45,201 nt of DNA from Candidatus Omnitrophota bacterium (GTDB taxonomy: Bacteria > Omnitrophota > Gorgyraeia > 2-01-FULL-45-10): assembly GCA_026387165.1 (NCBI GenBank), contig JAPLMG010000015.1:1-45201 (forward strand), in the 5' to 3' direction. Made by a program: the position numbers and the translations under genes. Under the pieces are notes generated by a model. It was given only the letters and a program-made list of their open reading frames with translations, had not been told where the DNA came from and ran no database searches. Of the stretch, positions 1,401-42,500 are shown one piece after another. Within the stretch, counting starts at the first letter, position 1. Each line of letters opens with the position of its first letter.

Positions 1401-1420
1401 TAAAACAACTTATTATATCT

Positions 1421-2816: not shown

Positions 2817-2898
2817 GCACGTTTTTTGCACATCTCAAGACCCACTTTTTTACACTCCTAATCAATCCGCTAACTTTTTAATGTAACTCCTTGTGGAC

Positions 2899-3029: not shown

Positions 3030-3038
3030 ATCTCCAAA

Positions 3039-21035: not shown

Positions 21036-21510
21036 GTCGAGATAGGTAAGCTGAACGTGACGCAGGCTTGGATAGACAGGTTCATACCGAGCATCAAATT
21101 GAGAGCGGTAGTTTCGGCGATGCAGCGCCTCGTAGGAGTCGAGATCAGGATTCCGATAATTACAGGCGGCGAGCAACAGGCCAACCAGCGCATAACAGAG
21201 CTTGAGCTTAGTAATATCAGATCATCACTTTCCGATGAAAATCGAGAAGTCTTCGATGAATTATACGCGATGTTTACGGAGCTCGAAAGGACGCTTAAGG
21301 ACCTTGAAGGCAGCGAGATAGCGCTTGCCTGGGCGTACGAGAATTATGAAAATGCCCGGAAAGATCTTGAACGGGGGGCTATCGATGAGATAGCGTATGT
21401 AGCGGCGATCAAGGCCTTAAACGGAGCCGAAATAAGATACACTGCGACAAGAGATAGTTATATTAAGCTCGATACGCTGCTCCGCGCGAGGCTCAATAGT
21501 TACGGCCTGA
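20955..21510 (+). other. TolC/OEP-type repeat 2, interrupted by the in-frame TAG
   Basis: LSPEMRDLVAPFASRDPRIRILEK*VEIGKLNVTQAWIDRFIPSIKL...VGVEIRIPIITGGEQQANQRITELELSNIRSSL...DLERGAIDEIAYVAAIKALNGAEIRYTATRDSYIKLDTLLRARLN. This matches the OEP consensus shape: NPdl..a...v.aa.a.v..a....lPsl.l ... l.lPlfdgG...a.i..a ... y.aG.....dvl.a...l..a......a...y......L. Confidence 0.55.
21033..21035 (+). other. Single in-frame TAG separating two giant ORFs of identical frame
   Basis: 3039 and 21120 are both 0 mod 3. The 28 codons from 21036 to 21119 contain no stop, so the TAG is the only interruption in 42,162 nt of open frame. Confidence 0.95.
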
Positions 21511-24500
21511 CCAATAAAGAGATCGCCGAAATGGAGAGGGATGCCAGAGGCAAAGAGGGCGTCGAGGAGGCTGCGAGAGCCGGCGCGGCCAGGAAAGCGG
21601 AAGCGATAAAGGCTGTGGAGCCCGCGCGCGATGCCGAGCTGAGAAGGCTTGAAGAAAAAGAGCGCGAGGCGGTCGTGATCGCCCAGAAGAGGGAAGAGCG
21701 CGAACGCGCCCGGGGCCAGAATCCGCTTGAGAAGCAGAGACTTACAGAGTCAGAGAGAGCGGCGCAGGCGTTATTAAAAGGCGCTCTCGATGCCGACGCC
21801 GAGAAAGCCGAAAATACGATGAAATACAGGGTGCGTTCCGAGATCTTTAAGGACGCGATCATCACACCTAAATACGCGACAGGTGTGAAGTCCTATTATT
21901 CGATAGCGATGGAGAGCCTGCTGACTACCATCGGGATGCCTTTTGGTGTTACAGGGGACGGCTGGGAAAGGGCGGTAAAGATCGACGACTGGCTGGATGT
22001 GGTAAATTCTTACGTCGTTACCCACAACGCGCAGTTCAACATGAATAACAGGCTATCCTTGATGGAGCAGACATACAAAGGCCTTAGCCCTGCAGAGAAA
22101 GATCAGTTAGAAAGGATCTCGAGGAGGCCCAATCAGCCCATCAGATGGGACAGACACTGGGAAGGATATTTCACCAGCGCGCAGATAAATACGCTGAATA
22201 TCCTGTTCAAAGGAAACGAGAGAAAGATCGCCAGCCAATATCTTGATGACGGAAAGATCAATCCCGCGTGGATCGGCCTTTCCAAGATAGGCATCTTAAG
22301 TTACGCGGCCAACAGGCAGATAGCCGATTCTACAAAATCGGCCCTGGGCGTTGTAAAAGAGATCCTGGCTAATGAAGCGATATTTGATAGAGAGCAGAGG
22401 TTCAGGGATCCGAAGAGCGAGGAAGACAAAAACTGGCCGGACAAAGATAAGGCGCTCGACGGATATACCGAATGGCTGCGCAAAACAAGACTGTCCTTAG
22501 ACAATATAGAGTTTTTAAATATACCGGAAAGCGCGAAGCTCGCGGATGGCGGTCCGATCTATCAGGTCAGGCGTTTGATCAAGAATATCTTCGGCAATGA
22601 GCGCGCGATATTCGGCGATTACACCGGCCGCGGCTCGGTGGAGGTATGGAACCTGTACCGGCTATTGTCGCGCCTCGCAAAGCCCGGAACGGAAAGGGGC
22701 CAGTATAAGGGTCTCGAGAACATACTTAAGCTGCTGCATGGCCTGGTCGTGGAGGGCAGGGGCTCGCTCCTGGACTTCTATGGACAGTATGACGAAAAGC
22801 GGCTGAAGGCTCTGCCTGAAGCGTTGAATTTAAGAAAGCTCATCGACGAAAGAGAAGACTACCGCGCCGCTCTCGAAGCCGCAAGGCCGGGCGATGACTC
22901 CGCGGCTCTGAAAGAGAGATTAAATTCCAAAGAGGCGCAGATACAGCGGGAAATGGATATATTAAGAGAGGGTCGTCTATATGGAAACGCCCTTTCCGTG
23001 CTGAGGTTTGCTCTCGAGTCGCCCGAGAATAGTGACATATTGGCTAAACTCGGGACCGGCGATCTCGCGTCCGGAGATACCGATAAGATAATGGATTTTG
23101 TAAGCTATTACTACAAGACCATGGATACTGCCCTGCCGTATCTTGAGAGAGTGTATGATGATCTGCCAAACGGCACCATCGACAGGGACAATCCCGAACA
23201 TATAGGTATACTGAGCCACTTCTACTCGCTCAGAGCGGCCAATAAATGGACAGACGACGAGACGCGGTATCTCCTGCAAAGGTTAGTCTCCGCCAAGGAA
23301 GAGGCGAAGGAATTTCTCGCGATGCTGCGCAATACGATGGTGGATCAAATAACCTTCGACTCCAAAGACACCGGAACCGTCGGCTTCTTATTCGGCCACG
23401 TATTCGCCCGCATCCAGAACGGCTGGGACAAAACGGCCATCAGGGACAGGATCCCGATCATGGGGATGATAAAACCGTGTCTTGAAGCATATCACGGTTA
23501 TAAGATAGATGATAAGGGCACGCCTGAAGAGCAGGCTGATAAAATAGGCAATCTGCTATATTGGAATAAGTTCCTTAAGGAAAATTTGAAAGATGATTTT
23601 GAGCTTTTCAAAGATATTCTCAGTAACCGCAAGGCGGTATCGCAGGCTATTAAGGAGGCGGATCGTGAGCAGTTAGAAACTGCCTTAGCGCAGGCAGATA
23701 AGCGCACAGAGGCTGAAAAATTTGCCATAGCCGTAGCGATTCTAAAAGATCAGAAGCTTGAAGAATGTGTCAGGGCGGATATTGAGGAAAGAAGGACAGT
23801 TGCCGGCAGGGCGCTTTCGCCGGGCGAAGAAACCGCAGTACGCGCAGCTGCCGAAAAAGCGTTTAATGAGTTATACGGCCTCCATATGATGGGGCCGCGC
23901 TATGTGGAAGCGGCAAAGCTCGCCGACGCCGAAAAAGACCGCCGTGTAAAAAAGCTGAACAAGGAGTTCGGACAGATATACGCTCTCTATATGGCCGAAC
24001 GCCGGCTATTCACAGAAACCAAAAAGGCGGTGAGAAGTAAGGCGTTGGAGGCGCTGTATGTCATAGATCCCTCTACTCAAGAGAGGCGCGCTGAGATCGA
24101 TAAGGAGCTTATGGAGCTCGAGAAGAAGGATGAAGAAGAATTCCTCAGGTTATATAAGAGCGGATTTATCTCCTCGGTCGCGGACGCGTTGATAGTCGAC
24201 GCCGGTTTCGTCAGGCTGACCGGAAAAGCATCGATAGTCAAGAATATATCCGATGTGGGCAATGTTATAGCGCTAAGGAATTTATTGACCAGCCTGAAGG
24301 ATGAGGGTATTCTCGCGGCTGCCGAGAAGGGGATGGATTTTGAACTTGAAAGAAGGAGGTATCTAGATAAACGCCGCGGGGAGATAGAGGCGAGCCTAAA
24401 AAAAGCCGACGTTAGCTTAGATGAAAATACTAAAAAGTCGTACATGAAAACCAGCGAAGAAAGCTTCGCCCATATCTACGGGCAGGGCGTCATAAACTCA

Positions 24501-27500
24501 AGGACGAATTCATTCTTCCTTGAGGGCCGGGCCGATCCTGCATTGGTCAAGAAAGTGCTGTACGCCGAATACTTTGTAGATAAGCTTGCGAAACTGAACT
24601 GGCGACCGTTAAATGCGGGCGAGGTGGGCAACTGGTCATGGGATCTAATGGAGATGATCTATCTTACCGAAAAGCAGCGCAAGCTTCCGGAGGCAGAGAA
24701 GGCGGCCATGCTTAGCGCTGACTTGAAAGATGCTTTCGACATAGCGGATTGGGAAGCATCCGCCGGTAGGGTCTTAGAAGCGAAAAAGCACATGGCGAAC
24801 CTCTTTAGCATGATAGATCGTGTGCAGAGGGAGCGCGTCAAGGCCGTGGACGCCACCAAAAAATATCTTGCCAAAAAAGAGAAGACGGCTGACGGGGCAT
24901 TCAAACTGCTATTCACCGCTCTTGAAGGTATAAGTGAGGCCGATCTCAAAAAAGCGGGCATAAGCGAAGCCGAAAGAGCCGAGATAGAAGCTCTAAGAGG
25001 CAAGATAGGAGCCTTAAGAAAGATGACGGAAGAGTCCGACGCGTCAAAGCAACCGTCTCTGCGCGAGGATATAGAGAGAGCCGACAGGTCAAAAGATGAT
25101 TTTCTGCGGCTTGACAGGGAGGTAAAAAGAGAGACAGAGTTAGGAGTGGCGCTCAGCGATATTGATGCGCTCCTGCTCCGGGCGGCTTCGTTGGATGCAG
25201 GTGTTGTCAAGGAGCTAAAAGAAGCTATCATTGACCTGGGTACGGCCAGGACTAGCGTAACGAAAGACGGCGAGAATGAATTTGGGGCTGCGTACCCTTC
25301 GGACGCGGCCGAATCTTTTGTCGAAGGATTATTTAAGAAGTTCGACAAGGTTTTTGAAGAGCTGAGAAAAGCCAAGGAGAGAGAGCTCAAAGATGGCAAG
25401 AGCCTTTACGAGAAAGTGAAGGCTGTCGAGGGGCGTCTCAGGGAAGAGCTGAGGAAAGAAGAGCTGGCCGGCTCTGAATTCGCCACGGGTAAGGCCTATA
25501 TTGACAGGGTCAATCAGCGGTTGGATGAATTGCGGCAGAAGGTCAGAGGCACATGGAGCTCGAGGTCGCTTGCGGTGAAGAGGGCAAATCTGGAAAATCT
25601 GCAGAAGGCGCTCGAGGACGCGAAGCTCTTCTATAATCTCGATACATACCGGAAGAAGCATAACGACGAGTTCTCCGTCTCCTCAGGACAGCTCCGCTAT
25701 GAAAAGATCCTGGAGCAGCTCATCTCCGAGAGTATGCCCTCTGATGCATTGGCGGCAAGGTTGGCGTCGTTAATAGAGATAGATAAGAAGAAGCTGGAAG
25801 GCGAAACTATAAACGGAGTCTATCTGAATTCCGTATACAGGGCCAACGGCAAGGAGCTGGAGACCGGGGAGCTCGGGTTCTTCCAGGGCGAGATACGGGA
25901 GAGCGTCCATCTCGGGGAATTAAGAAAAGCGTACGAAGACGACCTCATCAAAAAGGAAAATAAGACGAAGGAAGAGGCGAGCGTTCTGGGAGAATGGTTC
26001 CTAAGAGAGAGGATAGGCAAATATGTGAGATACGAAGCCCTTGTGACGGGGCTTGAGGAACTATTGATGCGCGATCAGGGCATTACGGATATGAATAGCC
26101 CGGAGGCAAAAAGGCTCAGGATGACCCGCGGCCAGAAGATAGGTCTCTTTATGAGCCTGGAAAAGAGGGTCTGGAAGGAAGAAGAAGAGATAGCGTATCT
26201 GAAAGAGTGGTTTAAGGACGCCTCTTTGGTACAGACATTCGCCGGGGAGCATCTGGGGTATCGCCTTGCCCACTCGCTGCTCAGTTATACCGTAGAAGTC
26301 ATGAGGAGCGGATTCGGCATGCCCGTACTGATGAATAGTGTTGATAGGTTAAGTATAGAGTTCCAGAAAGCCTTCCCGTATCAAATGGCTTACATGAATA
26401 TAGGGGATCATTTAAGGAGTATGGAGGCCGCCCTCTGGAACGAAAGGGAGTTATCGGTCATTCCCGACGATTCCATGACGGACCTGATATTGGAAAATAC
26501 ATTCTACAGGAATGGCGATCTTGACAGGGTATACAGGGCGGAGGCGATAGGGCAGTTGTACAGTTTCCACAACCAGGTCTCTTACCGCTTATCAATGGCA
26601 GATTATGGTAAGGACAAGGTAACGTATAGGGACCTGGAGAATACCGCGAAAGCGTTAGACTCCGTTATGATGCCGGAGATAGCATATAATGCCGCGAACG
26701 GCATACCCAAGCTAACCAAAGACTGGATGAGGAAGAATAAGGAGACCCTTGACGGATGGTTCGAAGGCCGCCGAGGTGAAAAGGACGCGAGGAAAGCCAG
26801 GGCTTTGAAGTATGAGAATAGCTTGAAGAATCCGGACAATATCCCGGCCGCCTTGAAGGAGACGGGCGATGAGCTCTCTAAGGCATGGAAGGCCCGGGGC
26901 AACACAGACCCGATGAACGAGGATCTAGCATGGTACTTCCAAAAGATCATGCTGTCCACCGGGATTTCCGCCGAAGACCTATTAAAAGTCACTTATGAAT
27001 ATCCGGCCGATATAGAGAAGGTCTGGGAGGAGGTTAACGGCCGTAAGCCTACTGAGGCGGAGTCCGGGAAGATCAAGTATTACGCGAGCAAGATGGACCT
27101 TGACGGCTGGACGCTGAATTACGTAAAGACGATACTTGTTTACGGTAATTATATTAGCGGCCTTATGGAGACTCTCCGCTCCGCCAAGCCCACAGAGGTC
27201 GAGGTGGAGAACCTTGTCAGGCTTGCCATAGATAACGGCATCTTGCCTGCGGACCCATCAATACCCGAGGCTAAAGGGGGCCTTGGTATAGAGATCGACA
27301 GTTTGAGCGTCGGCGCTCTCCTAGATAAAAAAATGCCGTTAGCGAGAGTCATCGATCTTACTAAAACGATCCACAGCAAGATCAATTCCCCCAAGATATC
27401 TATAGATGATGTGCTATATCTCGTAGGTCTTGCCATGGATACGAACATAGCGAAGCCGCCGGAGGAGGAGCGCTTTTCTTTAAGCAGGGAAGAAGTGAGA

Positions 27501-30500
27501 GGCGTCGTCGCCCGGCAGTTCACGAAAGAGAGGATAGATCTCGGCGAATTTGAAAATCATAGAAGCGTTATTATTGACGGGATAACAGACGCTCTTATTG
27601 GTAAGCGTATACATCCCGTGAATTTTGTCATCCTTGTTGATAGAACGCTCGCGCTGAGAGACGCCATAATCAAGGCGGCGGCGGATAAGGAAGTCGACAG
27701 CGAGGTAAGGCCTAAGCTGGAAATGACGAGGGGAGGCTTTGAGATGCTCGCGGTCTTAGATCAGCAGGCGCTGGACATAAACAAGATAATAGGCATAGCC
27801 GATATAGAGGCCCTTGGTATGGGCCGCGGGTCCGCAAAATATACCCTTACCGAAAACGCGGTTAAAGAGCCGGTGAACAGCCTGCGCAGGATGCTCATCA
27901 ATAAGCGCATAGAGACTAAGTATAAGGCGACGAAAGATTTCGTAAAAAACAACCTGCTCAAGGATCTTAAGCGGCCAGAAGATTTTAAGGCTAAGCTGGC
28001 GGCTGATGTAGTGGGTGAAGATCTGGTAGAGACGAAACGCGGCGCAGACGGCAAGGAATATTTTAATGTTAAAAATAACGAAGACGCAAAAAAATTCATA
28101 GATAAGAAGATAGGTGAACAGAGGGGTAAGGAGGACGGAGATCGGGGGAGTTTTTGGCGCGCTTCCTCATACGTAGCAGGCGCCTTCTCTGTCTTTGTAG
28201 CCATCTACGGCATCGGGCTGATAAGGAGAGCTTTACGTAAGCGTGACAAAACCGCCAAAGAGAAGATCGCGGCCGGTGAAGCGGGCGCTCTAGCGCCTCC
28301 GCCTGAGGGCGCGGGCATTGAAGGAGCTTCTCCGGGCGCCGGAGAAGCGTCTCTTTCCACGGCAGAAAGGCGGACGGACAAAGGGCCAGCTCCGAAAAAA
28401 GAGAAGCTGGCAGCCTTGGGAAGATACCTCGTATTTGCATTGAAACTATCGACCACATTCGTTGTGCTATACACCTTTAGCCATGAGTTTAGGATCACCA
28501 TGATATGGTGCGCCTCCAGCGGGATATTCATCGGCGCTCTCGCGATATCCATAATCTTACTATACTCCACGATAAAATTACTCAGCGGCAGATTCCCGTT
28601 ATTCAAGGGAGAGCTCAGGAAGTATGCCGGCCTCCATATAAAAATTGCCAATTTTATAAAATTGCCCTCTACAAAGATCTCGGAAAAGATAAAGGAGATG
28701 GAATCTTACTCCGATTCTTTCAGGGACTCCGCGGGCATATTCGCGCTGAGGCTCCTTAAGGTGCCGGTCGGTCTGGTGACGGGCCTGATCGGGACTGGTG
28801 TAAGGCTCGGTGTTCCGCTCTTTCCCGCGGGCTATTTTATATGGCAGTCGGGCGCGTTCACGCTCTTCGCCGCTAATAACGTAATGATCTTCCTGCTCGT
28901 ATTCATGCTTATTTCCACTGTCGTCAGCAAGGGATGGGACCTGCTGGTGAGCGCATCCAAGCTTGCGTTCATGTATTTAAAAAATTCGGTGTCCGAAGGC
29001 TCCTATACCGCGCCGCAGATGAAAGAGGCACGGCATGCGGCATTGACGGCGTCATTTAATCTGGCCGTAGCGCTGGCGGCCAATATAGGGACGTTAATAT
29101 ACATCTATTTCACGCAAAACTGGTTTGCCTCCATGCCTTGGCTTCTTGCCATAGCGGCGCTGGCATTCACCTACTGTAACTATTGCGTGGCTTATATACT
29201 GGTGTCGGCGTTAGTATACGGCCTAATGGCTGTAATAACGGCCTGCCGCCCCGGCAAAAAGCCGCTGTGGGATATCTCCTCCTATAAGCTGATAGAGAAG
29301 ATCAAGCGCGTTCCGAAGAAATATTTTACCACCGTCTATAATATGGGAGCCATGAAAGTGGACGATGACTTCAGGACAGTCATGGGCACCACTACAAGAT
29401 CTTTTGAGAATAATGTCCACATGACGGAAGTGTCGGGAGAGGGCGTCCCGTACCTGCGCAAAAACAGTTCCGGCAAAAAATTCGCATACGACACCACCGA
29501 CAATCTCTCGATGATGGTAAAGGTTACGTCCGGATATTTTGATAATACAAAGGACAGTTTCGTAAAGACTCTGCGGGATACGCTGAGGCTGAGGAGAGAA
29601 TATGGCAGGGGCAAGGCAGGGATCATCTTTACCAATACGGATGCCGCGAGGGCGGACCTGGCCGGTATGAAGCCACACTGCTACCGGGATGATTTCAAAT
29701 ATTTGCTCGAAGGCTGGAACCACCCGCATGTGTATGTCTCCATATCGGATATCGATGTCGATAACCTGGAGATGATCACGGGAGCCGTGGATACAAGCGG
29801 CAACTTCACGGGAAGGGTCATAGCCACGAAAGATGATGAGTATTTCATAGACAACGCCACAGGCGAAGCCGTTTTGAAAGACGGCAGGATATTAAAGCCG
29901 GGCGAATATATACGCGATGAAAAATTTAATATCATAACAGACTATTTTTTAAGGCCGATAGGCCCGATAGCGAGGAACGACCCGAAGTATAAGGAAAAAT
30001 ACAGCGATGAGAGCAAGTACTACAGGAAGAAGAAGATAGTCAACATAAACGGCGCCGACCTGGATGTCAGGGTGTCGACCGAGACCTATTACGTGGATGC
30101 CGATGATCCGTCCATAAGGTACAGGCTCATAAAGGGAGACCTTTATGATGACCGGACCGGCGTACCGGTCCTGACCAAGGACATGTATGAGAAGAGTCCG
30201 AGGCACGGCTATCTCCTGAATAAACGGACGAAGCAGAGGATCGACAGGGGCCTTGACGGGAAGAGCCTGCCTGAAAGGGTAGTAACGGTGACCGAGCAGA
30301 AGGTCTTCGCCAAGAACGCCGCCCAGAACAGGATCGATATTTATACGCTTACCAAAGACGGGAAATTGCTGGACCCATCGGGCAAGCTTTTTGCCGATAT
30401 AAGGAGCATATCTTCCATAAGAACGCTTTACGAAACTTTCAAGCTCGATAAAGACGGTTCTCTAAAGAAGACATCCGATCCGGATATGGAGATAACGGAC

Positions 30501-33500
30501 AAAGAGGACCCCCTCGCCTCCAATGACGGAAGAAGGTTCGAACTCGACGTATACAGCGTCATATCGAAGGAGCTTCTCGACCAGTTCGTCGACAAGACCG
30601 ACGCGGGCGGTTATGTGACTGAGGCGAGCAAGAATACGGAGAAGATATCGAAAGACGAATGGCGGGTGGACGCCGCATCGGGCGACGCTCTTATGAAAGA
30701 CGGACTCATAGTGGCGAGAAGAGGGACATGGCGAAGAGACAAGGAAGGCAACCTTTATATAGGAGGCATAAGCCAGGAAGATGCCGACATCTTCCTAAAG
30801 GAAGGCAATCTGCTGGACGTGGACTGCCTTAATATCGGCAAGAACGGGCGGGAAGAGACGTACTTTATAAGTACAGATACGGTGCGCGGCATACCCGTTG
30901 CCAGCAGCGCCGGCAAGAAGGATTTCGGCGCGAAGAAAGAGTTCGAGCGGTTCGCGAAGGAAGTGAACGGCGGATATCTCGTGAACGCCGCGGACGGATT
31001 CCGAGTAGTCGACGGGAAGCTCGTGCAGTATCAGAAGGACGGCATAGGATTTGATGAAGAAAAGAAGTATGTGATAGGAGAAAATTTTGAAACGACGGTA
31101 CAGGATTCCGTCGCGGTGGATCCGCTTACGGGAGAGCTCTTCCAATCACAGCGCATAGCCAAGCATGATACATATTGGCATCTGAACGACGAGGAGAAGG
31201 GTCGTAATGTATTCAGGATAAGGAAGATACTGGCAAGGCTCGAGGACGTCTATTTTGACGGGAGTGGTAACGCCAAGAAGAAGGGCGGGCTGGACAAACC
31301 GGTGGAAACGATAGCCGGCGCCGGGACGTTCGTGCTGGATGAGGACGGCAACCTGCGCAGTAAGAATGTAACAGCCGAAGACGCCGCTATAATCCAGCCT
31401 AGTACATTTGAAGCAAAAGATATTACCACCGACCACAAGTCCGGCGACCTGATAGTCAAAAAAAGGATTGCCGGAGCGAATGAATTCGACATAAACGAAA
31501 AAGGCCTGGCGGTGAGGTTGCCTGGCGCGGGCGGCCAGGCGATAGCGAACATAGGCACGTTCTTATTGAAGGCCGATAGGGGTGAGATACTTGACAAAGA
31601 AGGCAGAAAAGTCGAACCGGATTATTCGATACAGCTGGCCGCGCAGATAGACAACAAGAATGAGTATCCCGCCGACCACATAGGCAGGATAATATCCCGC
31701 GCCGTGAATGACATGGAGGGAGAAGAGGAAGTTGGTATGTATCAGCCACTCATAGATTATCCCAATTTCGGGAAGTCTCTTTACAGCAGGTTCCAGGGCT
31801 GGGCGCAGTCGATACTCTCCTATATTAATATGTCCGATTTCGCGGTATTCGGCGAATCATCGGCCGTTGGAAAGATGACTTTCAACATCAACAGGTACAA
31901 TAATGATGTCACCGAAAAGAAGGTTATACCCTATAACGTCAGATCGCACGATTTCTGGGAGGCGATGTTTACCAAGACCGCCAGACTGATGGGGACCGAG
32001 GAAGAGAAGATACGCGTCCTCGAGACGACGCCGTCCAGCTTCTTCGCCCAGGTGATAAGGTCCAAGCGCTGGATAGACGGAGACGTGCTTGCCCTTAAGA
32101 TAGAATACTGGCCCGTCAAAGCGCTCTTTGAGATACTCCGGTTCAGGCCGGTAGACGCTATCGGGACGATAGCAAGAGGACTACACAGAGGCATCACCGG
32201 GAAGACGCACATAAGCGCCGAGTCGAAGATGCATATCGGGGCGATCATAAGGGGGCTGATATCGGAGCCGGTCTTCTTCTTCTGGTTATTTATTCTCGGA
32301 GTCACCGCCACAATAATACCGGGCGTCATGACGGCGTCAGGCCCTATGATCTCATTGTGGGTCCTCTCTACGGTGCTGATCATACTGATAGGCCAGAAGG
32401 CCGTAGTGCCTATCTGGAAAGAGGTATGGGAAAAGAGAGGCTCGCGCGCGTTCAGGGCGCTCGGCGCGGTACTTGGGGCCGGATTCTCCGTCACGGCAAT
32501 TGGCCTGGGAGCGCTGCATTTTATCCCGTATGCCAAGGAGGCCTCTTTCGCGGTCGCGGGCGTCCTCATACTTATAGCCGCCGTCCGTTACGCTAATAAG
32601 ATGATCAGATCGCGCCATCTTATGCGCGGCATCGTGCCCATAGCTGTCCTGGCGGCCGTGATAATTATGGCAGTTTTCCTGTATATCAATCCGCCGTTTG
32701 CTATAGAGCTCGCGCTGACAAAGATGCAATCGGCCGTCTGGATCGTCGATTTCTTCAAATGGATACCTAAGTCCATGCCGTTTATAGTATCCGCGATATT
32801 GATCGTAAAGGCGGTGGGGTGGCGGGCAGACGTCTTAAGCAAGCGGGGTTCGGAACAAGATATTAAAAACGCGGATATATTGAGAATAGTGCCAAGAGCG
32901 TTCTATATCTTTAAGAGAGCGGTCTGGGAGACGATACTTGGCACGGGCATACTCATGGTCCTCATACTTTACAAGCCCAAATATTTATTGGACGGCATAA
33001 AGAAGATATTTGAGGGAGAGAGGTTCGTATGGTTCACCATGATACAGGGTGAACGCATGGTCGCAAAAGGATACAAATTGTCGAGGGCTTATGGCGAATA
33101 CAAATGGGCGCCGATACTGGGCGTCACGATACTTGTCGCGACGATCCTTTACATGACATTGGGCGCCTACTTCCCCGCCTTCAGGATACTCGATCCGGCG
33201 CTCGCGTTCAAAGGATTGCCCATATTCATATTCTCGTGGATATTCGGCCCGGGCATAGCGTGGTATTCGGCGCAGTACGGCGGCAGCGCGGGGCACAGAG
33301 AGCCGGCATTCATGCATTCTGTATCGGAATTCAGATCGTCCCTTAAGGCAAAGCCGCTGGATGCATATGGCGCGATAGAAAAGATACGGGATATCCTCAA
33401 GGATTCCGGGGAGTTTAATATAGATGTTGACAGGTCAAGGATGTACCTGCTTTATCTGACCCAGATAGATTTTAGCCGCGACGAAAGAGGGCTTAAGCTC

Positions 33501-36500
33501 GAAAGCTATTTGAGCAGCGTCCTGAGATCGGCCAACCTTACAGATATGGAGCAGGAATTAAAAGACCAGCTTAAGTGGTGGGAACCGGGATTCGAAAATG
33601 AATGGGACAGCATTACGGAACTATTGAGGGTTTATCTGCTGGATAGAGCGGTAAGGGCGGCGGCGAAAGACGGAAAGGCCGCTGAGCTCGCGTATTTAAT
33701 AGGCCAGATAGATGAAGACCGGCAGAATCTCATAAGGGCCGTCAACGATATCGTAAGGCGTATCAGCCCGAGGAAGATAGGGGAGACGTACTGGGTATAC
33801 GCGTCACTTTCGGAGAAGCAGGATTTTGTCAGGAAAACGGTAGAGTTGCATATAAAGGACGCCGCCAAGCGTGCGGAAGCTATAGGGCATATCAGTAAAT
33901 TGCTCGCGCTTACTCCGGAAGAAGAGGTCAAAAGGCTGATAAAGATGCAGGATTCATTTGATGCCGAGAGGGCCACGGAGCTGCAGAATGCCGTGAAGGA
34001 AGAAGAAGGCAAGGCGCCGGAGAAGAAGAAGGGCATCCCTAACAGAAGAAAAGAGATGTTCAGGGCTACGATAGAGCCTTTTGGCAGGTTGGACGATATT
34101 CGCGTGCTCGGCATCTCCTTCTCATGGGGGCTGTCGCGCAGGCTCAAGGGCATCAGCGGGGAAATATATAGAGAAGGCCTGACCGGCGCGGACAGGATGA
34201 AAGTTATCAGGCGCCACAGGAAGTTCTATGGAAGGCTGCTCGCGCTGGTCGGAGGCGACGCGCGAAACGAAGAACGAACCGAAAAAGAGATGCTCGAATT
34301 ATACGATTATCTCGTCAAGCGCGACGCGTCCATAAGGCTTAAGGCGGACGCGGACGTCATGATAGACAGGCTGAAAAAAGAAGAGGAGAAGTTGAAGGAG
34401 AACGCCTTTAAGCAATTTGTGCTGGAAGAGTGGGATAAAGTTGTCGCCTTTATGAAGGGGCGTTCTGCCATAGAGAGAAGACCGATAAAGAAGGATGAAG
34501 ATGCGAGGAAGGCCTCGCGTGAATTACTGGAAAAATCTATTTCGGAGGCCATCGGCAAGGCGGCTGGGGGCCTGACTGGCGAAGAGCTTACGTCGAAGCG
34601 CGAGTGGACGCTCGATCGGGGCTCGAGGGACCTGGAGGCCGGCGAAGGCGATGGCAAGATAGCCGCGGACGGAGCGCTTGCCAGATTTATGGCCGCGGCG
34701 GGAGAGGATGTCGTCGTCTTCGGCGGAGCGGTAAGGAACGCCATCATGCATAAGGAAGAAGATACCGAGGAGTTCGATATATTTATCAGGGCAGGGGATC
34801 CGACGGATGAGGAGATGAGGGAGATATACAGAAAAAGTAAGGAATATATGAAGGACAGGCGCGCCTTGGATGAGCTGATCTACAGGCTGCAAGCCGACCC
34901 AAGATTCAAGGAGCGCCTTGCTCAGCACCTGAGGAGCGTGACGGTGGATATGTTATACGGAATAAACGGTATAAGAAGAGATAATATGCTGGAAGAGGTC
35001 TTGTACAGATATATTCTATATGAAGCGGTGCGGGACCTGCTTATGAGAAAGGCTATCACAGTTATCGCAGCGGAAGCGGCGGTTCTTGGCTGTGATCCAG
35101 AAGCATTGCAGCAGGGTATGGCAATAGTAGATGGAAAGCTGGTGAGGATAGCCGGGTTTCTGGATGGTTCCGGAGATATATTCGCCATACCGGGCAATGA
35201 AGACGTCTTCTTCGATATACCGGAGCTTACCATGAACAGGCTTGCCGTGGGAAAGAAGGATGGCAATTATACTCTCTATGACCAGTATGGCGGCGAGACT
35301 GATATAAAGAGTAAGGCATTAAGGCTTAACTTTAGTGACGGAGTTAAAGATGAAGCGGGCCTCATGATAATATTCCGCGCGCTCAGATTTATTAAGCAGT
35401 ATGAAGAGGCGGGCTTCAAGCCTGACGGAGCGCTTACGAAATTACTTGAAGAGTTCTTCAAAAAACCGAAAGATTTCGGTATCGACAGCCTGGAAGAGCT
35501 TCTCCTGAAATTATATGAATTCACAGCCGACGCGGAGGAAGCCGATGCGTTACTCGAGAGCGTAGGGGCGCTTAAGTTCATTAAGGATAAAGGCATAGAC
35601 TTAGATGATATCAAAAAGGAAGCTCTGACAGCGCAAGAATTAAGAGAAAAAGAGCTTGCCGTCACGGAATTGAGAGCAGCGGAGCTTGCGGACGAAGAAT
35701 CATCTCAGACTGTAATAGGCTTATTAAGCTGGGTAGGCCTTTTAGCCGTGACAGGCGAGAAGAAGATAGCGATAGCAGCCGGCGCCGCCGCCGGCGTACC
35801 AACTGCCGCAGCCAAGCCGGCAGGCGGATACGCAAAAGGGGGCGCTAAGGCTCCTGCCGCGCCTGCCGGAACAGCGCCCGCGTCAGCCGCAGCCAAGCCT
35901 GCAGGCGGATACGCAAAAGGCGGTAAGGTAGCTCCAGCACAAGCTGCAGGCACAGAAGCCTCCCAAGTTTCGGTGCCGACAGGCAAGTCGCTCTTGAGAG
36001 CCGAGCAAGTCGCGCTCGACATACTCTTAGGCCGCGTCTTGCAGAAACCCGCGGAGAAGCCCGGAACCGAAAAAGCCATAGAGGACGGATATGAGCCCGG
36101 CCCGAAAGCAAAAGCTTTTATGCAGAGGTATCTCGGCAAGGATTACAAGTCAGGTGAGAAGCTATTGGGTCTGGGTTACAGAAAGATGAAGAAATTTAGT
36201 AACGATCTGGATAAGATAATAGAAGACGAGATCGAGAGGCGCGCTATAAAGGACGAAGAAGAGATAAGGTATGTTAAATACATAATAAGCCGCATAGTGA
36301 ACTGGAAACCGGTGTATCTGGGACACAAAGTGCGCAGGGATTTGACCGTCAACGAATATTACATACTGAACTGGCGCGCGCTTGAAATAGCGCTCATGCT
36401 CTTGGACAGGCAGGGCTTTGAGAAGAAGAATAAGGAGCTCGCGGAGGAGAAGAGGCTCGCTAATATGAAGTCGTTATTGACGGGCCATGCCCCCGAAGCG

Positions 36501-39500
36501 AACATAGCCGGCATAGATACTATGGATAAGATAACGCTGATCCTCGGCGACAACGGCAGGATAGGCGATCTTCTATTCATCCAGAGGATGCTCGCCGATA
36601 ATCCGCGCCTTCAGGTCTACGCGATACCCAGGGCAAGGCGCTTTATGGACGCGATTACTAGCGAGGATATCGAGAATCTGTTGTTGGGCAAAGATGAGCT
36701 GCGCAGGTCAATGCTTACCTATATAAAATCGAAGGTAAAGAAGGTTATCGACGCCCTTCCGGACAAAGAAAAAAATGAGAAGAAGAAAAAGGAAGGGCTT
36801 TTAAAGGAACTTGCGGGTATAGACGTATCCATCGACGGATCGTATGCGCAATTGAGAACATTCATAGAAGCCAATATAGATGACAATGAAAAGAAAGACG
36901 TTTTAACTAAAGATCTTAGCGCTCTCCCTGATATCGATCCTCTCAAAGGCCTGCGCGAAGCGTGGTTGATGGGGCGGTTTATCCTCGTGGAGGACGGGCC
37001 TGCCGGTGAGGGCATCGACTTAGAGACCGTCTCGGAAGGCGTCGCGGAGGCGCTGTCCGGCGCCGACCGGGTGATAGCGCCCGGCGCGAATAACGCGGCA
37101 TCGATCGCGGCGAGCCGCCTGCCGACCGCGGCAGCGCGCGAAGAGGCTGTCGAAGTAACGGAGTTCGTGCCGCTGATGTCACGCAAAGAGCGCGTCGCTT
37201 CATGGAGCGAAGGCCAAAAGAGGATCGCCGGGCTTTCGGCGCAGGGCCAGAATTTTGTGGTGGCGCTCTTCGACATAGATCATCTTACCAAGTACCACAC
37301 CGCCTACGGAAGAAATCAGCAGCTTGCCGGAAAGGTCAGGATAGTGATAGCCGATATCATCAAAGATATGGAAAAGAGCCGGCTCTATCCCGGTATAAAA
37401 GTGGAGCAGTTCACTAAAAAAGGAGATGAGTCCGCGCTGATCATCAGCACGACAGACAATTCGCCGCTCGACAGGGCCGTGGCAGCGCGGGTATTGGAGC
37501 ATATAAGGCGGGAAGTCGCAAAGGGCACATTCAGGCGCTTCGGCAAGGCCACCATCACAGGTCTGGCGGGATTAAGCGCGAAGAAGATAAGCCAGATAAA
37601 GAGCGTTCTCGGCGCCAGGTTTGCGGTGAAAAACGGTTCAGCCGATATAATCTTCGATTTAATAAAAGGTGAGAAGCCGGAGGAGGCGTGGAAGAGGCAG
37701 CTTGAAATATGGAATGGCCAGCTTACGGAAAAAGGCCTTAAGATAGGCGGCGACTTTAAGCATATCGTGCCCGCCTTCACCATCTCACTCGGCGCCGCGC
37801 AGAACAACGCTGTTGACGGAGCGATATACAACTTGACCAAAACACTGCAAACCAATGTCGATAAAGCCCAAAGAGATTTTGAAATAGCCAGACAGAAAAT
37901 ATCGGATATTTTAGCAGCGCTTTGCGCGACTCAAGATGAGCGTGAAATGATCAGAGATATAATTTATAGAATAAAAGACGTGGACGATATCGGGTTTTTT
38001 GTACAAAATATCGCGGAAGATAACATCCTTTTTAAGTTAGATGATCTGATTTACAAAATTCGGAATATGTTAGATAGCGAAAGAGTAAGGTGTATTAAAG
38101 CTTTGAGGCGACACTATAAAGAGCGCGAGAGAATGATAATAAATGAGCTAAATAATATAGCGGATAACACGACTACTATAGATGCGCTACAGTCGAATAT
38201 AGATAAAAGCTTTGCGGAGATATCCGGGCTTAAAGTTTCCGAAACTGACAAGCAATTTATTATGGGTATTCTGCGGCAGTTGGGTATCAACGTATCTCAA
38301 AAATATGCTAGAAATAAAAATTTGAATGGTATCCTGAAAGATGAATTGGCCGGCAGCATCGCTAAATTGAAAGAATATTTTAGAGGTAAAAGGCGTAAAG
38401 TAAATGAGGACATAGATAATGTAGATAATGTGCTAAAAGGCGCGACGGATATATCGGATGTTGACGCTACAATAGAAAAAGTTTTTGGTCACTTGGGCGA
38501 TTCAGAATACGGAGCTGCATATAAAAAATTTGTGCGCCAAATGGGCGAACGGATAAGAGAAAGATTCGGGCGCGAAAGAGGCGAAATAGGCCCTTATATA
38601 TCGCCGTCTTTGAGTTCTATGGAAGATATATCCAGGTTAAGGAAGATTTTCGAGAGACATAACGCTGCAGATTTACTTAATGTAGCTGATGATGTTTGGA
38701 AAAATTTTGTTAGCATACGAAAATGTATGGCAGGAATTGTGGATGATGAATATGAACGTAATTTGAAGGGTGCTTTAAACATCTCAGAATTGCGGAGATA
38801 CGCTAACAACACTGTTGTGAGTGTTCACAAAGCACTGCAAGTAGCGGCTAATGACCATGAGGCAACTTTATTAGAGAAAAAATATAGGATCGTAAAAATT
38901 CTAACGCCGTTTATAACTCGAGATAGAAATTTTGCTTTAATAAATGCTGCCCAAAGCCCCGAAGACATTCGTCCTGTACCGATACAAGTTCGCGCCGCTA
39001 AAGCCGCAACTTTGGCTAAAGACAGAGGTAGAAATAAAATTGCGTGGTCTGATGACGTGCGATATCCTCAAGGTGTTGTAGAAACATTCTCGCCGCCTGA
39101 AGTTTTGAGGGAAACGACAGAAGAGATAGCGCTGACGGCAGAAGAGGCCCCGAAAGCTCCGCAGACAACTCAGCCGCCGGCCCAGGCCCCGCCCGAGGCG
39201 TTGTCGATAACTCCGCAAAAAACATTTTTACAAAGAATGTTTTCTTTCCTAAGGAATCCTGCGAATATTTCAATTATTCTGATAGGCGCCGCGCTATTAC
39301 TCATGCCGGGATGCACTTACTATACAGCCGCTTCATCTATGCCGTGGTTTCAAATCGGCGCTTTCGTTGTGCCGTCACTGCTTGCTTTGGGACTTGGCAC
39401 TTTCTATTTATACAGACGAGCGAAAATTAAAAAGTATATGAATGAATTGGAAGACAAGGATTTAAATGTTAATGATAGAGCCGCCAAAGCTCTTATAGCG

Positions 39501-42500
39501 TTAAGAGCGCTGCCCACAAAAACAGAATTTACGGTTATTAAGCGCTTAAGAGATTTATCGTACCTATACGACGAGCCATTACTTGAAGATGCTAGAAATG
39601 ATTTAGTAAGAATGGGGAAGGCTGCAGAGCCTTATCTTGTTAAAATATTCGAAAATAAGAATTCAAGACTACGCAGGGCGGCTATAGGTGTTCTTGGTAG
39701 GATCGGTGTAGTTCCTGTCCTCATAAAAGCATCAGAAGATAATGATTTTTACATTCGTGATTTCGCTTATGAGGCGCTTGAAAGATGCAGAGCCTTAAAT
39801 GTAGAGCTTAAGGTTAAGCGATATTTAAAAGATTTAGAAGATGGTAATAAGCGTATTAGTAAATCAAGCGCCTTACTCGCACTCGGCAATATTGGCTCTA
39901 AAGCCGAAGAGGCCGTTCCTGCCATAATAAGATTGTTGGAATATGGAGACGAGAATGATCGTACCAATGCTGCTGATGCATTAGAAAAAATTGGCGCTCT
40001 TACCCCAAATCTTGCTGTGCGCCGATACATAAAAGATCTTGATGGAGTGCGCGACGGGTGCGGTTTCCGTGGAGAGGCTGCCGCTAAAGCGCTTGGCAAC
40101 CTAGGGTCTGAATCCAAGGAAGCCATACCTATTTTAACAAATGCATTAGAAGGTGAGCACTCAAATGTTCGCCAGGAAGCTGCCGCCGCATTGGACAAGC
40201 TCGGAGCCTTAACTGTAGAGCTTAAGGTTAAGCGATATTTAAAAGATTTAGATGAGAATCTCGAGGGTTCTCAATCTCGTATTGTTCGTTCATTAGCGGC
40301 TGAGGCTCTTGAAAAACTTGGTGCTTTCAGCACAGAACTTAAAGTAAGACTATATATAGCTGAATTAAAAGACCTCTTTTATTCTTATGATGATCGCAAG
40401 CCCGCGATCGAAGCTCTAGTAAAAATTGGTCAATCTGCGACTCCTTCCCTCTTAAAAGAATTAGACAATGATCGATATAATATTCGAAGTGCTGTTGCGG
40501 AAACCCTCGAAAGACTCGGAGCCTTAACCGTGGAGCTTAAGGTTAAGAAATATTTAAGAGATTTAGAACATGGTGATTTTAGTTATATTGATGAAAATTG
40601 GCGCTACCGTGGACTAGCCGCAGAAGCTCTCGGTAAAATGGGTCCAGAAGCCAAGGACGCAATCCCCGCTCTCATCAAAAGCTTGACAGATTGTCAGCCA
40701 GATAATCGAATCGTTGCTAGTGAAGCTCTTGTTAAAATAGGAAAAGTCGCTGTACCAAACCTCATCAAAGCATTAGAAGATAGTGAAGAATACGTCCCCA
40801 GTTTCGCCGCCGACATTCTTGGTAAAATAGGCCCTGAAGCAAAAGAAGCTGTCCCCGCTCTCATCAAAAGCATGACAGATAATAAGTCGCCTTATAGAGG
40901 CGCCGCTGATGAAGCTCTTGTTAAAATAGGAAAAGCCGCTGTCCCAGGCCTCATCAAAGTATTGGAAGATAATAATAGCGTTGTCCGTGGAAGTGCCGCA
41001 ATGGTCCTTGAAAAACTAGGGTCATTAACAGTAGAGCTCAAAGTAGCGCGGTATCTTAGTGATTTAAGAGATACAGATAACTCTATCCGTAAAAATGCCA
41101 CCGAAGCTCTTGTTAAAATAGGAAAAGCCGCTGTCCCAGGCCTCATCAAAGTATTGGAAGATAATAATAGCGTTGTCCGTGGAAGTGCCGCAATGGCCCT
41201 TGAAAAACTAGGGTCATTAACAGTGGAGCTCAAAGTGGCGCGGTTTATAAATGATTTAAAAGATAAGGATAGCTCTGTTCGCAGCTGTGCCGCTGACAAC
41301 CTTGGTAAAATAGGTCCGGAAGCTAAAGAATCAGTTCCCGCTCTCGTAAATGTATTAAAAGATAATGACAATGACGTTCGCCGCAATGCTGCCGCAAGCC
41401 TCGGCATAATAGGGGATATACAGGCCTTGCCGGCCCTTATTGGCTTGATAAACGACTACAAAAGCGGCCCTGCGGCAATAATGGCCATTGCCTCCATTGT
41501 ATTTAAAAATAAAAGCGTCTTATCAGAAGATGCTTGGAAGTCTATAATATCTCAGAGTCATATCGACTTAGTAGTAGATATTTTCAAAAAATATCCGGAT
41601 TTATTTAATCAAGATATACAGTGGTTGAATGCAATAAGGCGTCTTATTGAACAGATAAACGAGGAGATTAATATATATCCTGCAAGCGAACAGGAATCCG
41701 TCCGCAAACAGATTTGCGGCAGCATAGACAACTATATCAAAATGTTTGTCCCTGATAACAACGCAGATCGCATAATAACGGAATATAAAGAGATCTCTTC
41801 TCTTTTTGAAATAGTCCACGATAACCTACCGCTATGCCTTGATTCTTTAAGGCAAATCGGTCTGAATATGGCCTATTTCGAATCATTAAGAAAGGCGCTT
41901 CCTTTGAATAATGCCTTGACCAGAATATTAAGGATGCTCGGAGAAAGTGAAAGTGCAATAGGCGGTTTCAGAGATGTTACAACAAAAGTCCAAAAGTCCG
42001 GTAACTTTGGCAGGCTATATTCAATGATAGTTGATGTGGCCAAGAGAAAACAAAGGACCGCCCCCCAGGAAGTATCCGGCCTACTTGAGATATTAAGATC
42101 ATTAGGTAACATTTCAAGATGGAAAGAAAAAAAATGGGAGCGTATTAAAGGCCAGATAGAAAAGTATTACTCATCAGGCTTTAAAGTTATCACATATAAT
42201 CTGTTCAAATACTTTGTAGAACACGAAAACGATGCAGCTGCCTTGTTCACGATGAAAGAAGATATACAGAAACAGTTAGGTAATATCGGATGGGGTGGTT
42301 TCGCTGGATTAACGGACGATTTTAAAAAGAAATACGGCATAACCACGCGGGATGAGATAGCGCTGTTGGCTAAGTATATGGCTATATCAAACCTCACCGC
42401 ACGAGATTATGCCGGTAAATATGAGGATATCAAAAAAGTCCTCGCTAAAAGGGGCGGCGCATGGAAAGACGAAATTGATGAAGGCTTACGAGAACTATTC

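What the first reader, a model, noticed from the sequence alone, without database searches (positions are those of the whole stretch)
34690..35430. CCA-adding/poly(A)-polymerase-type nucleotidyltransferase head domain inside the giant protein
GGAVRN...EFDIF and TMNRLA...YGGETDIKSKALRL...LMIIFRALRF reproduce the two hallmark blocks of class-II tRNA nucleotidyltransferases. They occur in a membrane-tethered giant protein, with an unusually long insert (about 170 aa) between the blocks and N replacing the usual D of GGxVRD. The domain could be an RNA-tailing or tRNA-modifying effector or a nucleotide-signal generator. A different NTase-fold protein, the AbiEii toxin, sits 30 kb upstream, and a cyclase-like palm lies 1.8 kb downstream.
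Basis: partly seen in the sequence, partly recalled or inferred. Interest (0 to 1): 0.65.

Follow-up and report, generated by a model that had tools for sequence, protein, structure and literature searches.

The report
Divergent CCA-type nucleotidyltransferase domain in giant protein
A giant membrane protein of the kind found in Omnitrophota bacteria really does contain a very diverged relative of the enzymes that add CCA or poly(A) tails to RNA; it keeps the metal-binding catalytic core but has lost the parts that read tRNA and pick C or A, so it probably transfers nucleotides to some other, unknown acceptor.

Summary
It is homologous to class-II (PolyA_pol, PF01743) nucleotidyltransferases. 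Evidence: Pfam 24-25 bits against a cut-off of 23; profile-profile probability 96% (E 3.5e-9); all significant PDB profile hits (E<=0.001) and 5 of the next 7 are CCA-adding enzymes or PAP (9 of 12); an AF2 model (pLDDT 84) whose top 37 Foldseek hits are class-II enzymes. Only about 10 relatives were found in 1.8 billion representative proteins and GTDB genomes. Those whose source is known come from giant ORFs of Omnitrophota MAGs, plus one MAG labelled Planctomycetia.

Kept: GG, Arg, an acidic dyad (ExD here, DxD in two relatives), an invariant Asp, motif C (Dx3Gx9R) and R..RF. Lost: RRD, the flexible loop with the B/A basic residue, the templating Arg of EDxxR (Met here), and the tRNA-binding body and tail. 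A conserved helical insert of about 95 aa follows the dyad strand.

The domain always heads one colinear module: NTase, a Tyr-bearing A/G/P linker, a DUF89/ARMT1-like domain, and a GGDEF-like domain with GDES.

Best reading: a catalytically competent, probably cytoplasmic NMP-transferase that is not a CCA-adding enzyme; its acceptor is unknown. This is a new variant of a known kind, of moderate interest.

The parts
21036..45200 (+). Giant ORF2 (>8055 codons, runs off the window end) that carries the domain. Probably continuous with ORF1 (3039-21032) across an in-frame TAG at 21033-21035.
   Evidence: The OEP (PF02321) match rises from 34 to 52 bits and spans the TAG when the stop is read through.
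34584..35675 (+). Whole class-II NTase-like domain (head plus neck-like helices), ORF2 aa 4517-4880. In 'target numbering', 1 = aa 4517.
   Evidence: Pfam PF01743 24.1-25.2 bits. hhalign 96%. AF2 pLDDT 83.9, pTM 0.78. Foldseek top 37 PDB hits are all class-II NTases.
34596..34613 (+). Family-specific N-terminal element KREWTL (R6, W8, L10 conserved).
34719..34739 (+). Motif A, first half: F-G-G-A-V-R-N. G4563, G4564 and R4567 are invariant; N4568 replaces the usual Asp.
34767..34787 (+). Motif A, second half: strand EEFDIFI with the acidic dyad E4579 (nt 34770-34772) and D4581 (nt 34776-34778). Relatives have ExD or DxD.
34794..35048 (+). Family-conserved helical insertion of about 85-95 aa between the dyad strand and the canonical helix (AF2 helices 75-90, 92-104, 106-124, 132-155). 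Absent from canonical class-II enzymes.
35136..35168 (+). Strand KLVRIAGFLDG ending in invariant G4707 and D4710 (nt 35163-35165). D4710 is the candidate third carboxylate. The flexible loop that follows in CCA-adding enzymes is missing here.
   Evidence: Role of the third Asp and of the loop: PMC12166844, PMC7014341.
35214..35246 (+). Motif B remnant D-I-P-E-L-T-M-N-R-L-A. RRD is replaced by IPE; TxN is kept; R4735 is a family-specific invariant.
35280..35324 (+). Motif C, D4749-x3-G4753-x9-R4763. It fits the class-II pattern Dx(3,4)Gx(9)R. D4756 is invariant.
   Evidence: Pattern from PMC12166844.
35346..35390 (+). Motif D remnant K-D-E-A-G-L-M-I-I-F-R-A-L-R-F. An acidic residue is kept; the templating Arg is Met4777. 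R4781, R4784 and F4785 are invariant and shared with canonical enzymes.
35391..35675 (+). Neck-like helical region. It aligns with the first neck helices of CCA enzymes, but PF12627 is not detected.
35808..35924 (+). A/G/P-rich linker with two copies of AAKPAGGYAKGG. It is the only such Tyr motif in the 14,053 aa, and 2-6 copies sit at the same place in every homologue.
36291..37190 (+). DUF89/ARMT1-like domain, a conserved downstream partner.
   Evidence: Pfam PF01937: 20.7 bits here, 38.4 bits in P0003. Profile against PDB 2g8l, E 8e-4. Colinear in homologues.
37191..39050 (+). GGDEF-like palm domain with DIDxL, KKGDES (nt 37416-37445), FTISLGA and, after a large insertion, AKDRGRNKIAW. A conserved downstream partner.
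   Evidence: Profile against PDB diguanylate cyclases, E 8.5e-7. Colinear in homologues.

Best explanation
The segment is a true but very diverged member of the class-II (Pol-beta superfamily, PolyA_pol/CCA-type) nucleotidyltransferase fold. It is embedded in a soluble, probably cytoplasmic, stretch of about 2000 aa in a polytopic giant protein of the Omnitrophota 'Archaeovorin' type. It most likely still catalyses two-metal transfer of an NMP from an NTP to a hydroxyl acceptor. The GG loop and Arg4567 would hold the triphosphate. E4579, D4581 and probably D4710 would hold Mg2+. It is not a CCA-adding enzyme or a poly(A) polymerase in the usual sense. It lacks the ribose-sensing RRD, the flexible loop and B/A residue needed for A-addition, the templating Arg of EDxxR, and the body and tail domains that hold tRNA. 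It has gained a conserved helical insert. Its nucleotide choice and acceptor are therefore different and unknown. It works as the first unit of a conserved module: NTase, Tyr-bearing linker, DUF89-like domain, GGDEF-like domain. Shown: homology, fold, which motifs are kept or lost, rarity, and the conserved module. Inferred: catalytic competence, cytoplasmic location, and a non-tRNA acceptor.
For: Homology:
- PF01743 scores 24.1-25.2 bits (cut-off 23) on the excised domain, and 5 of 8 family members match.
- BLASTP against E. coli Cca aligns motifs B-D at E 5e-5, with a colinear GGAVR block.
- hhalign of the family against canonical enzymes gives 95.6-96.1% probability, E 1e-8 to 3.5e-9.
- The family profile against PDB gives only class-II enzymes at E<=0.001 (3h37 1.2e-4, 6ibp 2.6e-4) and the three PAP chains at 0.021; 9 of the 12 hits up to E 10 are class-II, the other three (E 0.029-0.75) are unrelated.
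- The family profile also hits a canonical PolyA_pol+HD protein, P0007, at E 1.2e-4 in a database of 5.8 billion.
- A canonical-only HMM finds just these two colinear sites in 14,053 aa.

Fold: the AF2 model has pLDDT 83.9, and its top 37 PDB hits and top viral hits are CCA-adding enzymes, A-adding enzymes, PAP or phage tRNA nucleotidyltransferases.

Catalytic competence: across 7 full-length relatives at 22-49% identity, the invariant or near-invariant positions shared with canonical enzymes are the active-site ones. These are G47, G48, R51, D65 (with E or D at 63), G191, D194, D240, R265, R268 and F269. Two relatives have a classical DxD (L005 DFD, L006 DID). The roles of DxD, the third Asp, motifs B, C and D and the loop are taken from PMC11784652, PMC7014341 and PMC12166844.

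Location: the domain lies between hydrophobic clusters at ORF2 aa 3736-4080 and 6078-6125. Positive residues flank those helices on the domain's side. The same stretch holds a GGDEF-like domain, which also uses NTPs.
Against: - No activity was tested.
- RRD and the EDxxR Arg are important for NTP binding and selection in every characterised class-II enzyme; in a selection screen no substitutions of the templating D and R were recovered (PMC11784652). Their loss here could mean loss of NTP binding.
- The first carboxylate is Glu in most members.
- The equivalence of D4710 to the third carboxylate depends on an alignment that shifts between runs. Model coordinates could not be inspected.
- The AF2 alignment contained 7 canonical CCA sequences, so the fold match is partly built in.
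- The Pfam score is marginal, and falls to 18.1 bits when the domain is scored inside a 2700-aa piece.
- Topology rests on a simple hydropathy scan and the positive-inside rule.
- The published description of these proteins predicts HEAT repeats to be extracellular, whereas the hairpin at 6078-6125 would put the HEAT repeats on the same side as this domain.
Confidence: 0.55

Rival explanations
1. Pseudoenzyme. The class-II NTase fold is retained only as a structural, RNA-binding or nucleotide-sensing unit, as in the inactive CCA-enzyme homologue Utp22. It would regulate or scaffold the neighbouring DUF89-like and GGDEF-like domains.
For: RRD, the flexible loop and the templating Arg are lost. 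The motif D loop has low model confidence (residues 251-260, pLDDT 63). An inactive CCA-like protein is documented in the literature (PMC3794860, listed). The fragment P0006 has a degenerate motif A.
Against: The residues that stay invariant over 22-49% identity are the triphosphate and metal ligands (GG, R51, D65, D194, R265, R268). Position 63 is always Glu or Asp. In a dead domain these positions would be expected to drift.
Confidence: 0.25
2. The domain nucleotidylylates the tyrosines of the adjacent G-(G/K)-Y-(G/A) repeats in cis. This would be either a regulatory Tyr-NMP mark or a protein primer for a short nucleotide tail. It would parallel the Tyr-AMPylation carried out by other Pol-beta-fold enzymes (GlnE, DrrA; from general knowledge).
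For: The Tyr motif occurs only directly after this domain, both in the window (2 copies in 14,053 aa) and in all six long relatives (2-6 copies each, 280-420 residues after the GG motif, nowhere else in 6.6-7.1 kaa). The tRNA-binding body and tail are missing, so an acceptor has to come from elsewhere.
Against: This is purely positional evidence. Two copies in the window is within chance for the composition (shuffle mean 1.2). No class-II NTase is known to modify protein. The repeats could be a plain flexible linker.
Confidence: 0.1
3. A bona fide tRNA CCA-, CC- or A-adding enzyme, or a poly(A) polymerase, that became fused into the giant protein and still repairs or tails tRNA/RNA 3' ends.
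For: The nearest relatives by every search are CCA-adding enzymes and PAP. Absence of the flexible loop is also the hallmark of bacterial CC-adding enzymes (PMC7014341).
Against: NCBIfam CCA equivalogs score 11-20 bits against cut-offs of 290-606. PF12627 is not detected, and there is no body or tail: an A/G/P linker follows at aa 4901. RRD is absent and the EDxxR Arg is Met.
Confidence: 0.07
4. Chance resemblance of two short motifs in a very long, compositionally biased protein.
For: Single-sequence searches were weak: phmmer against PDB found nothing significant, and the word-based homologue search found nothing.
Against: Profile methods agree and are colinear. The shuffle control gives 21.6 bits against a maximum of 9.0. 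The family is conserved.
Confidence: 0.02

Closest known systems
Class-II tRNA nucleotidyltransferases and bacterial poly(A) polymerase I (Pfam PF01743 PolyA_pol head; e.g. E. coli Cca and PcnB, T. maritima 3H37, Planococcus 6IBP)
   Same: The head fold is the same. Shared residues: GGxVR, an acidic dyad on the next strand, the TxN part of motif B, motif C Dx3Gx9R, and the R..RF helix. The first neck helices also align. The order of elements is colinear.
   Different: Asn replaces Asp in GGxVRD. The dyad is ExD rather than DxD. RRD is replaced by IPE. [quoted passage not shown] The EDxxR Arg is Met. A helical insertion of about 95 aa follows the dyad strand. There is no PF12627 hit and no body, tail or HD domain. 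The domain sits inside a >14,000-aa membrane protein rather than a free protein of about 400 aa.
Bacterial CC-adding enzymes (class-II enzymes lacking the flexible loop)
   Same: They also lack the flexible loop between the B/A motif and motif B (PMC7014341; alignment).
   Different: CC-adding enzymes keep RRD, EDxxR and the tRNA-binding body and tail. This domain keeps none of them.
Archaeovorin-type giant proteins of Omnitrophota (West-Roberts et al., bioRxiv 10.1101/2023.11.21.568195)
   Same: The host protein shows the described traits: extreme length, many transmembrane clusters, HEAT repeats, GGDEF-like and SecA-like pieces. The homologues come from Omnitrophota MAGs.
   Different: Neither that preprint nor the 2026 Omnitrophota preprint mentions a PolyA_pol or nucleotidyltransferase domain, or this NTase/DUF89/GGDEF module. 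The taxon of the window itself was not established.
Utp22 (inactive eukaryotic homologue of CCA-adding enzyme)
   Same: It is an example of the class-II fold reused outside tRNA maturation (PMC3794860; title and abstract only).
   Different: Here the metal- and triphosphate-binding residues are conserved. The context is bacterial and membrane-bound.

Membership tests
Class-II NTase superfamily (PF01743 PolyA_pol head) | Match to the Pfam model at or above its gathering score (23 bits) | tested here: met
   24.1 bits (380-aa piece) and 25.2 bits (303-aa piece). Only 18.1 bits inside a 2700-aa piece. 5 of 8 family members match at E<0.1. The match is marginal but consistent.
Class-II NTase superfamily (PF01743 PolyA_pol head) | Motif A: GGxVRD | tested here: met
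   FGGAVRN. G, G and R are invariant in the family. The final Asp is Asn here and in 4 relatives, and Asp in P0002 and L006.
Class-II NTase superfamily (PF01743 PolyA_pol head) | Motif A: DxD catalytic carboxylates | tested here: met
   E4579-F-D4581 aligns with DxD. L005 has DFD and L006 has DID. The position is always acidic. The Glu-for-Asp substitution was not tested for activity.
Class-II NTase superfamily (PF01743 PolyA_pol head) | Third metal-binding carboxylate just before the flexible loop (AtCCA D185; PMC12166844) | tested here: inconclusive
   The invariant D4710 sits at the end of the aligned strand, but its alignment partner shifts between runs, and model coordinates could not be inspected.
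Class-II NTase superfamily (PF01743 PolyA_pol head) | Motif B: RRD (ribose recognition) | tested here: not met
   RRD is replaced by I-P-E. The family consensus is [IVT]-P-[ED].
Class-II NTase superfamily (PF01743 PolyA_pol head) | Motif C: Dx(3,4)Gx(9)R | tested here: met
   D4749-QYG-G4753-ETDIKSKAL-R4763 fits the pattern exactly (pattern from PMC12166844).
Class-II NTase superfamily (PF01743 PolyA_pol head) | Motif D: E(D)DxxR amino-acid template | tested here: not met
   The sequence is KDEAGLM, with Met4777 where the templating Arg lies. Some relatives have D-x3-R, and L005 has Val.
Class-II NTase superfamily (PF01743 PolyA_pol head) | Head-domain fold | tested here: met
   AF2 pLDDT 83.9. 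The top 37 Foldseek PDB hits are class-II enzymes, with TM about 0.4 because of the insert. Caveat: the alignment used for the model included canonical CCA sequences.
CCA-adding enzyme / poly(A) polymerase (functional families) | B/A motif and flexible loop (needed for A-addition) | tested here: not met
   About 20 aa are deleted relative to Bacteroidota and E. coli enzymes, and there is no basic residue: G-F-L-D against G-A-R-K-E (PMC7014341).
CCA-adding enzyme / poly(A) polymerase (functional families) | Neck (PF12627), body and tail domains that bind tRNA/RNA | tested here: not met
   PF12627 is not found even at E<=10. About 90 aa of neck-like helices are followed by an A/G/P linker at aa 4901.
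CCA-adding enzyme / poly(A) polymerase (functional families) | NCBIfam equivalog score | tested here: not met
   11-20 bits against cut-offs of 290-606.
Archaeovorin-type giant proteins (Omnitrophota) | Giant polytopic protein with HEAT repeats and GGDEF/SecA-like pieces, encoded in Omnitrophota | tested here: inconclusive
   The architecture is met. Homologous loci lie in three Omnitrophota MAGs and one MAG labelled Planctomycetia. The organism of the window itself was not identified.
Anti-phage defence NTases (PADLOC models) | Match to any defence-system model | tested here: not met
   No PADLOC hit for the domain or for the 2025-aa soluble stretch.

The most novel reading that the evidence does not exclude
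The domain is a class-II NTase that has changed acceptor from tRNA to protein. It would nucleotidylylate, or prime a short nucleotide tail on, the tyrosines of the conserved G-(G/K)-Y-(G/A) repeats tethered just after it. That would switch the downstream DUF89-like and GGDEF-like domains of the giant protein.
Probability: 0.1. Interest if true: 0.8.

Novelty: new variant of a known kind. Interest (0 to 1): 0.5.

Why it matters
Most of the sequence of the giant Omnitrophota proteins has no annotation. This finding assigns a fold, and a probable chemistry, to one conserved piece. It also defines a recurring four-part module: NTase, Tyr linker, DUF89-like domain, GGDEF-like domain. For work on nucleotidyltransferases, it shows the class-II catalytic core stripped of all known substrate-reading elements yet keeping its metal and triphosphate ligands. 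That makes it a natural experiment on how far this scaffold can be repurposed. If the enzyme is active, its acceptor (RNA, its own Tyr linker, or something else) would reveal a new activity in a well-studied family.

Tried and rejected
- Single-sequence searches were uninformative. The word-indexed homologue search gave nothing. phmmer against PDB gave only noise. Single-sequence AF2 failed, with pLDDT 46.
- NCBIfam gave only sub-threshold CCA hits.
- The metagenome scan only re-found the L005 contig. The viral contig scan found none.
- PADLOC gave no hit. Rfam and tRNA scans of the window were empty.
- The window's AbiEii protein is not in the contig index, so the source organism could not be traced.
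- The supplements of the two Omnitrophota preprints hold no mention of PolyA_pol or ARMT1.
- The third homologue search, seeded with P0007, returned only Bacteroidota CCA enzymes about 78% identical to each other. They served as canonical rows but added little diversity.
- A functional link to the AbiEii toxin 32 kb upstream was rejected: it belongs to a different NTase family, lies in a separate small operon with AbiEi, and is absent from the homologous loci examined.
- The idea that the domain is a cGAS/CD-NTase-type signal synthase found no support in any search.
Full report
**What is there.** The window holds two enormous reading frames on the + strand, in the same frame. ORF1 runs 3039-21032 (5998 aa). 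ORF2 runs 21036-45200 and off the end (over 8055 aa). A single TAG separates them. The finding lies in ORF2, and the quoted peptides are all present:
- FGGAVRN at nt 34719-34739
- EEFDIFI at 34767-34787
- DIPELTMNRLA at 35214-35246
- YDQYGGETDI at 35277-35306
- KDEAGLMIIFRALRF at 35346-35390

**Is it more than chance?** Yes.
- Pfam PF01743 (PolyA_pol head) matches the excised piece at 24.1-25.2 bits, E 2e-5 to 5e-5, against a cut-off of 23. It scores only 18.1 bits when buried in a 2700-aa piece.
- BLASTP against E. coli Cca, fetched from NC_000913, aligns the motif B-D block at E 5e-5 with a colinear GGAVR block.
- I built an HMM from canonical enzymes only (E. coli Cca and PcnB, three Bacteroidota CCA enzymes) and ran it with filters off over all 14,053 aa of both ORFs. 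It gave exactly two hits, colinear and both inside the finding.
- The real segment scores 21.6 bits, against a maximum of 9.0 among 2000 shuffles.

**Relatives.**
- A full HMMER scan of 1.84 billion representative proteins found only six relatives.
- GTDB genomes added four loci, one of them identical to P0002.
- The metagenome scan re-found one of these loci, and viral contigs gave none.
- The long relatives (P0001, P0003, L004, L005, L006) are pieces of giant ORFs. L004, L005 and L006 are open over 6600-7100 codons.
- The named sources are three Omnitrophota MAGs and one MAG labelled Planctomycetia.
- The host protein matches the published description of 'Archaeovorin' giant proteins: extreme length, transmembrane clusters, HEAT repeats, GGDEF and SecA-like pieces.
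- Neither preprint on these proteins mentions a PolyA_pol or nucleotidyltransferase domain.

**Homology at family level.**
- A profile of the family against PDB returns only class-II enzymes at E<=0.001: T. maritima 3H37 at 1.2e-4 and Planococcus 6IBP at 2.6e-4. E. coli PAP (3AQK) follows at 0.021. In all, 9 of the 12 hits listed up to E 10 are class-II; three unrelated proteins appear at E 0.029-0.75.
- In the 5.8-billion-protein set the family profile picks up a canonical PolyA_pol+RNAbd+HD protein, P0007, at E 1.2e-4.
- Profile-profile comparison with canonical enzymes gives 95.6-96.1% probability, E 1e-8 to 3.5e-9, over motifs B-D.
- The N-terminal GG/dyad block is the stretch that Pfam itself scores best.

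**Structure.**
- The single-sequence model failed, with pLDDT 46.
- An alignment of six relatives plus seven Bacteroidota CCA heads gave a model with pLDDT 83.9 and pTM 0.78.
[quoted passage not shown] The top viral hits are phage tRNA nucleotidyltransferases.
- TM is only about 0.4, as expected with a large insertion.
- Because canonical sequences were in the alignment, the fold match is partly built in.
- The inserted helices have no canonical counterpart and are still modelled at pLDDT about 90. This shows that the family rows carry signal of their own.

**Anatomy relative to the class-II motifs.** Motif roles are taken from PMC11784652, PMC7014341 and PMC12166844. The comparison uses.

Kept:
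- G4563 and G4564
- R4567
- the acidic dyad E4579-x-D4581 (always E or D at the first position; L005 has DFD and L006 has DID)
- invariant G4707 and D4710 at the end of the next sheet strand
- T-x-N of motif B
- motif C exactly as Dx3Gx9R (D4749, G4753, R4763)
- D4756
- R4781, R4784 and F4785

Lost:
- the Asp of GGxVRD (Asn here, Asp in two relatives)
- RRD (now I-P-E)
- the flexible loop and the basic residue of the B/A motif (about 20 aa deleted, as in bacterial CC-adding enzymes)
- the templating Arg of EDxxR (Met4777 here; Arg one residue out of register in some relatives; Val in L005)
- PF12627 (not detected)
- the body and tail domains

Gained:
- a conserved N-terminal KREWxL element
- a conserved helical insertion of about 95 aa directly after the dyad strand (model helices 75-155)
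- the family-invariant R4735 in 'TINRLA'

The equivalent spacing in E. coli Cca is 70 aa.

**Context.** The domain lies between hydrophobic clusters at ORF2 aa 3736-4080 and a helical hairpin at 6078-6125. Basic residues flank those helices on the side of the domain. By the positive-inside rule this suggests a cytoplasmic location. That is an inference, not a result.

Downstream, in the same order in the window, P0001, P0003, L004 and L005 (L006 in part), come three further elements:
- an A/G/P-rich linker;
- a DUF89/ARMT1-like domain (PF01937: 20.7 bits here and 38.4 bits in P0003; PDB 2G8L at 8e-4);
- a GGDEF-like palm with G-D-E-S in place of G-D-E-F (PDB diguanylate cyclases at 8.5e-7).

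The linker carries a G-(G/K)-Y-(G/A) unit. The window has two copies and no other in 14,053 aa. Each relative has 2-6 copies, always 280-420 residues after the GG motif, and none elsewhere in 6.6-7.1 kaa.

**Most likely mechanism.** The residues that stay invariant over 22-49% identity, and that are shared with real enzymes, are the triphosphate and metal ligands. The substrate-reading elements are the ones that have gone. The best reading is therefore a catalytically competent NMP-transferase with a different nucleotide preference and a non-tRNA acceptor (confidence about 0.55).

| Rival | Confidence |
|---|---|
| Binding-only pseudoenzyme | 0.25 |
| Cis-nucleotidylylation of the neighbouring tyrosines | 0.10 |
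| True CCA/PAP activity | 0.07 |
| Chance resemblance | 0.02 |

No activity, topology or metal geometry could be tested here. The identity of D4710 as the third carboxylate depends on an alignment that shifts between runs.

**Verdict.** The implied CCA or tRNA function is unlikely. This is a new, rare and strongly derived subfamily of a known enzyme fold, with a conserved set of partner domains. It is of moderate interest. The interest would be higher if the acceptor proves to be the tethered tyrosines.

Noticed in passing
window 21033-21035 (context 20133-21932): ORF1 and ORF2 are in the same frame and are separated only by one TAG. With the stop read as X, the Pfam OEP (TolC-like) match grows from 34.2 bits (profile positions 51-186) to 52 bits (profile positions 6-186) and spans the stop. 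The two ORFs are therefore probably one gene of over 14,000 codons. The TAG could be a sequencing error, a recent nonsense mutation, or a read-through or recoded codon.
   Followed up: partly
window 35808-35924; L004, L005, L006, P0001, P0003 at the equivalent place: The A/G/P-rich linker directly after the NTase domain carries repeated G-(G/K)-Y-(G/A) units (AAKPAGGYAKGG twice here). The motif occurs nowhere else in the giant protein or in 6.6-7.1 kaa of each homologue, and it is present after the NTase domain in all of them.
   Followed up: partly
window 36291-39050: A DUF89/ARMT1-like domain and a GGDEF-like palm (GDES in place of GDEF, with an insertion of about 390 aa before the final AKxxGRN helix) follow the NTase domain in conserved order in the homologues.
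   Followed up: partly
window 39001-45201: GC content falls from about 0.50-0.54 to 0.40-0.43 within the same ORF, over the part that encodes the HEAT repeats.
   Followed up: no
window 39246-39410 (ORF2 aa 6071-6125): A transmembrane hairpin with a lipobox-like LLLMPGC after the first helix and RRAKIKK after the second. By the positive-inside rule, the HEAT repeats would lie on the same side as the NTase module. This is at odds with the published prediction that HEAT repeats are extracellular.
   Followed up: no
window 268-2816: A small upstream gene set: a Bro-N domain protein (268-1125), an AbiEii nucleotidyltransferase toxin (1421-2203) and an overlapping AbiEi-like antitoxin (2196-2816), the antitoxin match being just under the Pfam cut-off. 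They show no evident connection to the giant gene.
   Followed up: partly
window 3039-21032 (ORF1): ORF1 has a SecA P-loop-like stretch (aa 2344-2377, below the cut-off) and a glucoamylase-like domain (PF10091, 32 bits). It also has dense transmembrane clusters at aa 1192-1800 and 2738-3100.
   Followed up: no
L004 (CAZGAS010000004.1), aa 1947-2019 of L004:9554-17803: The homologous giant ORF in the MAG labelled Planctomycetia carries a second, unrelated NTase (NTP_transf_2/Polbeta, 34-37 bits) after its HEAT repeats.
   Followed up: no
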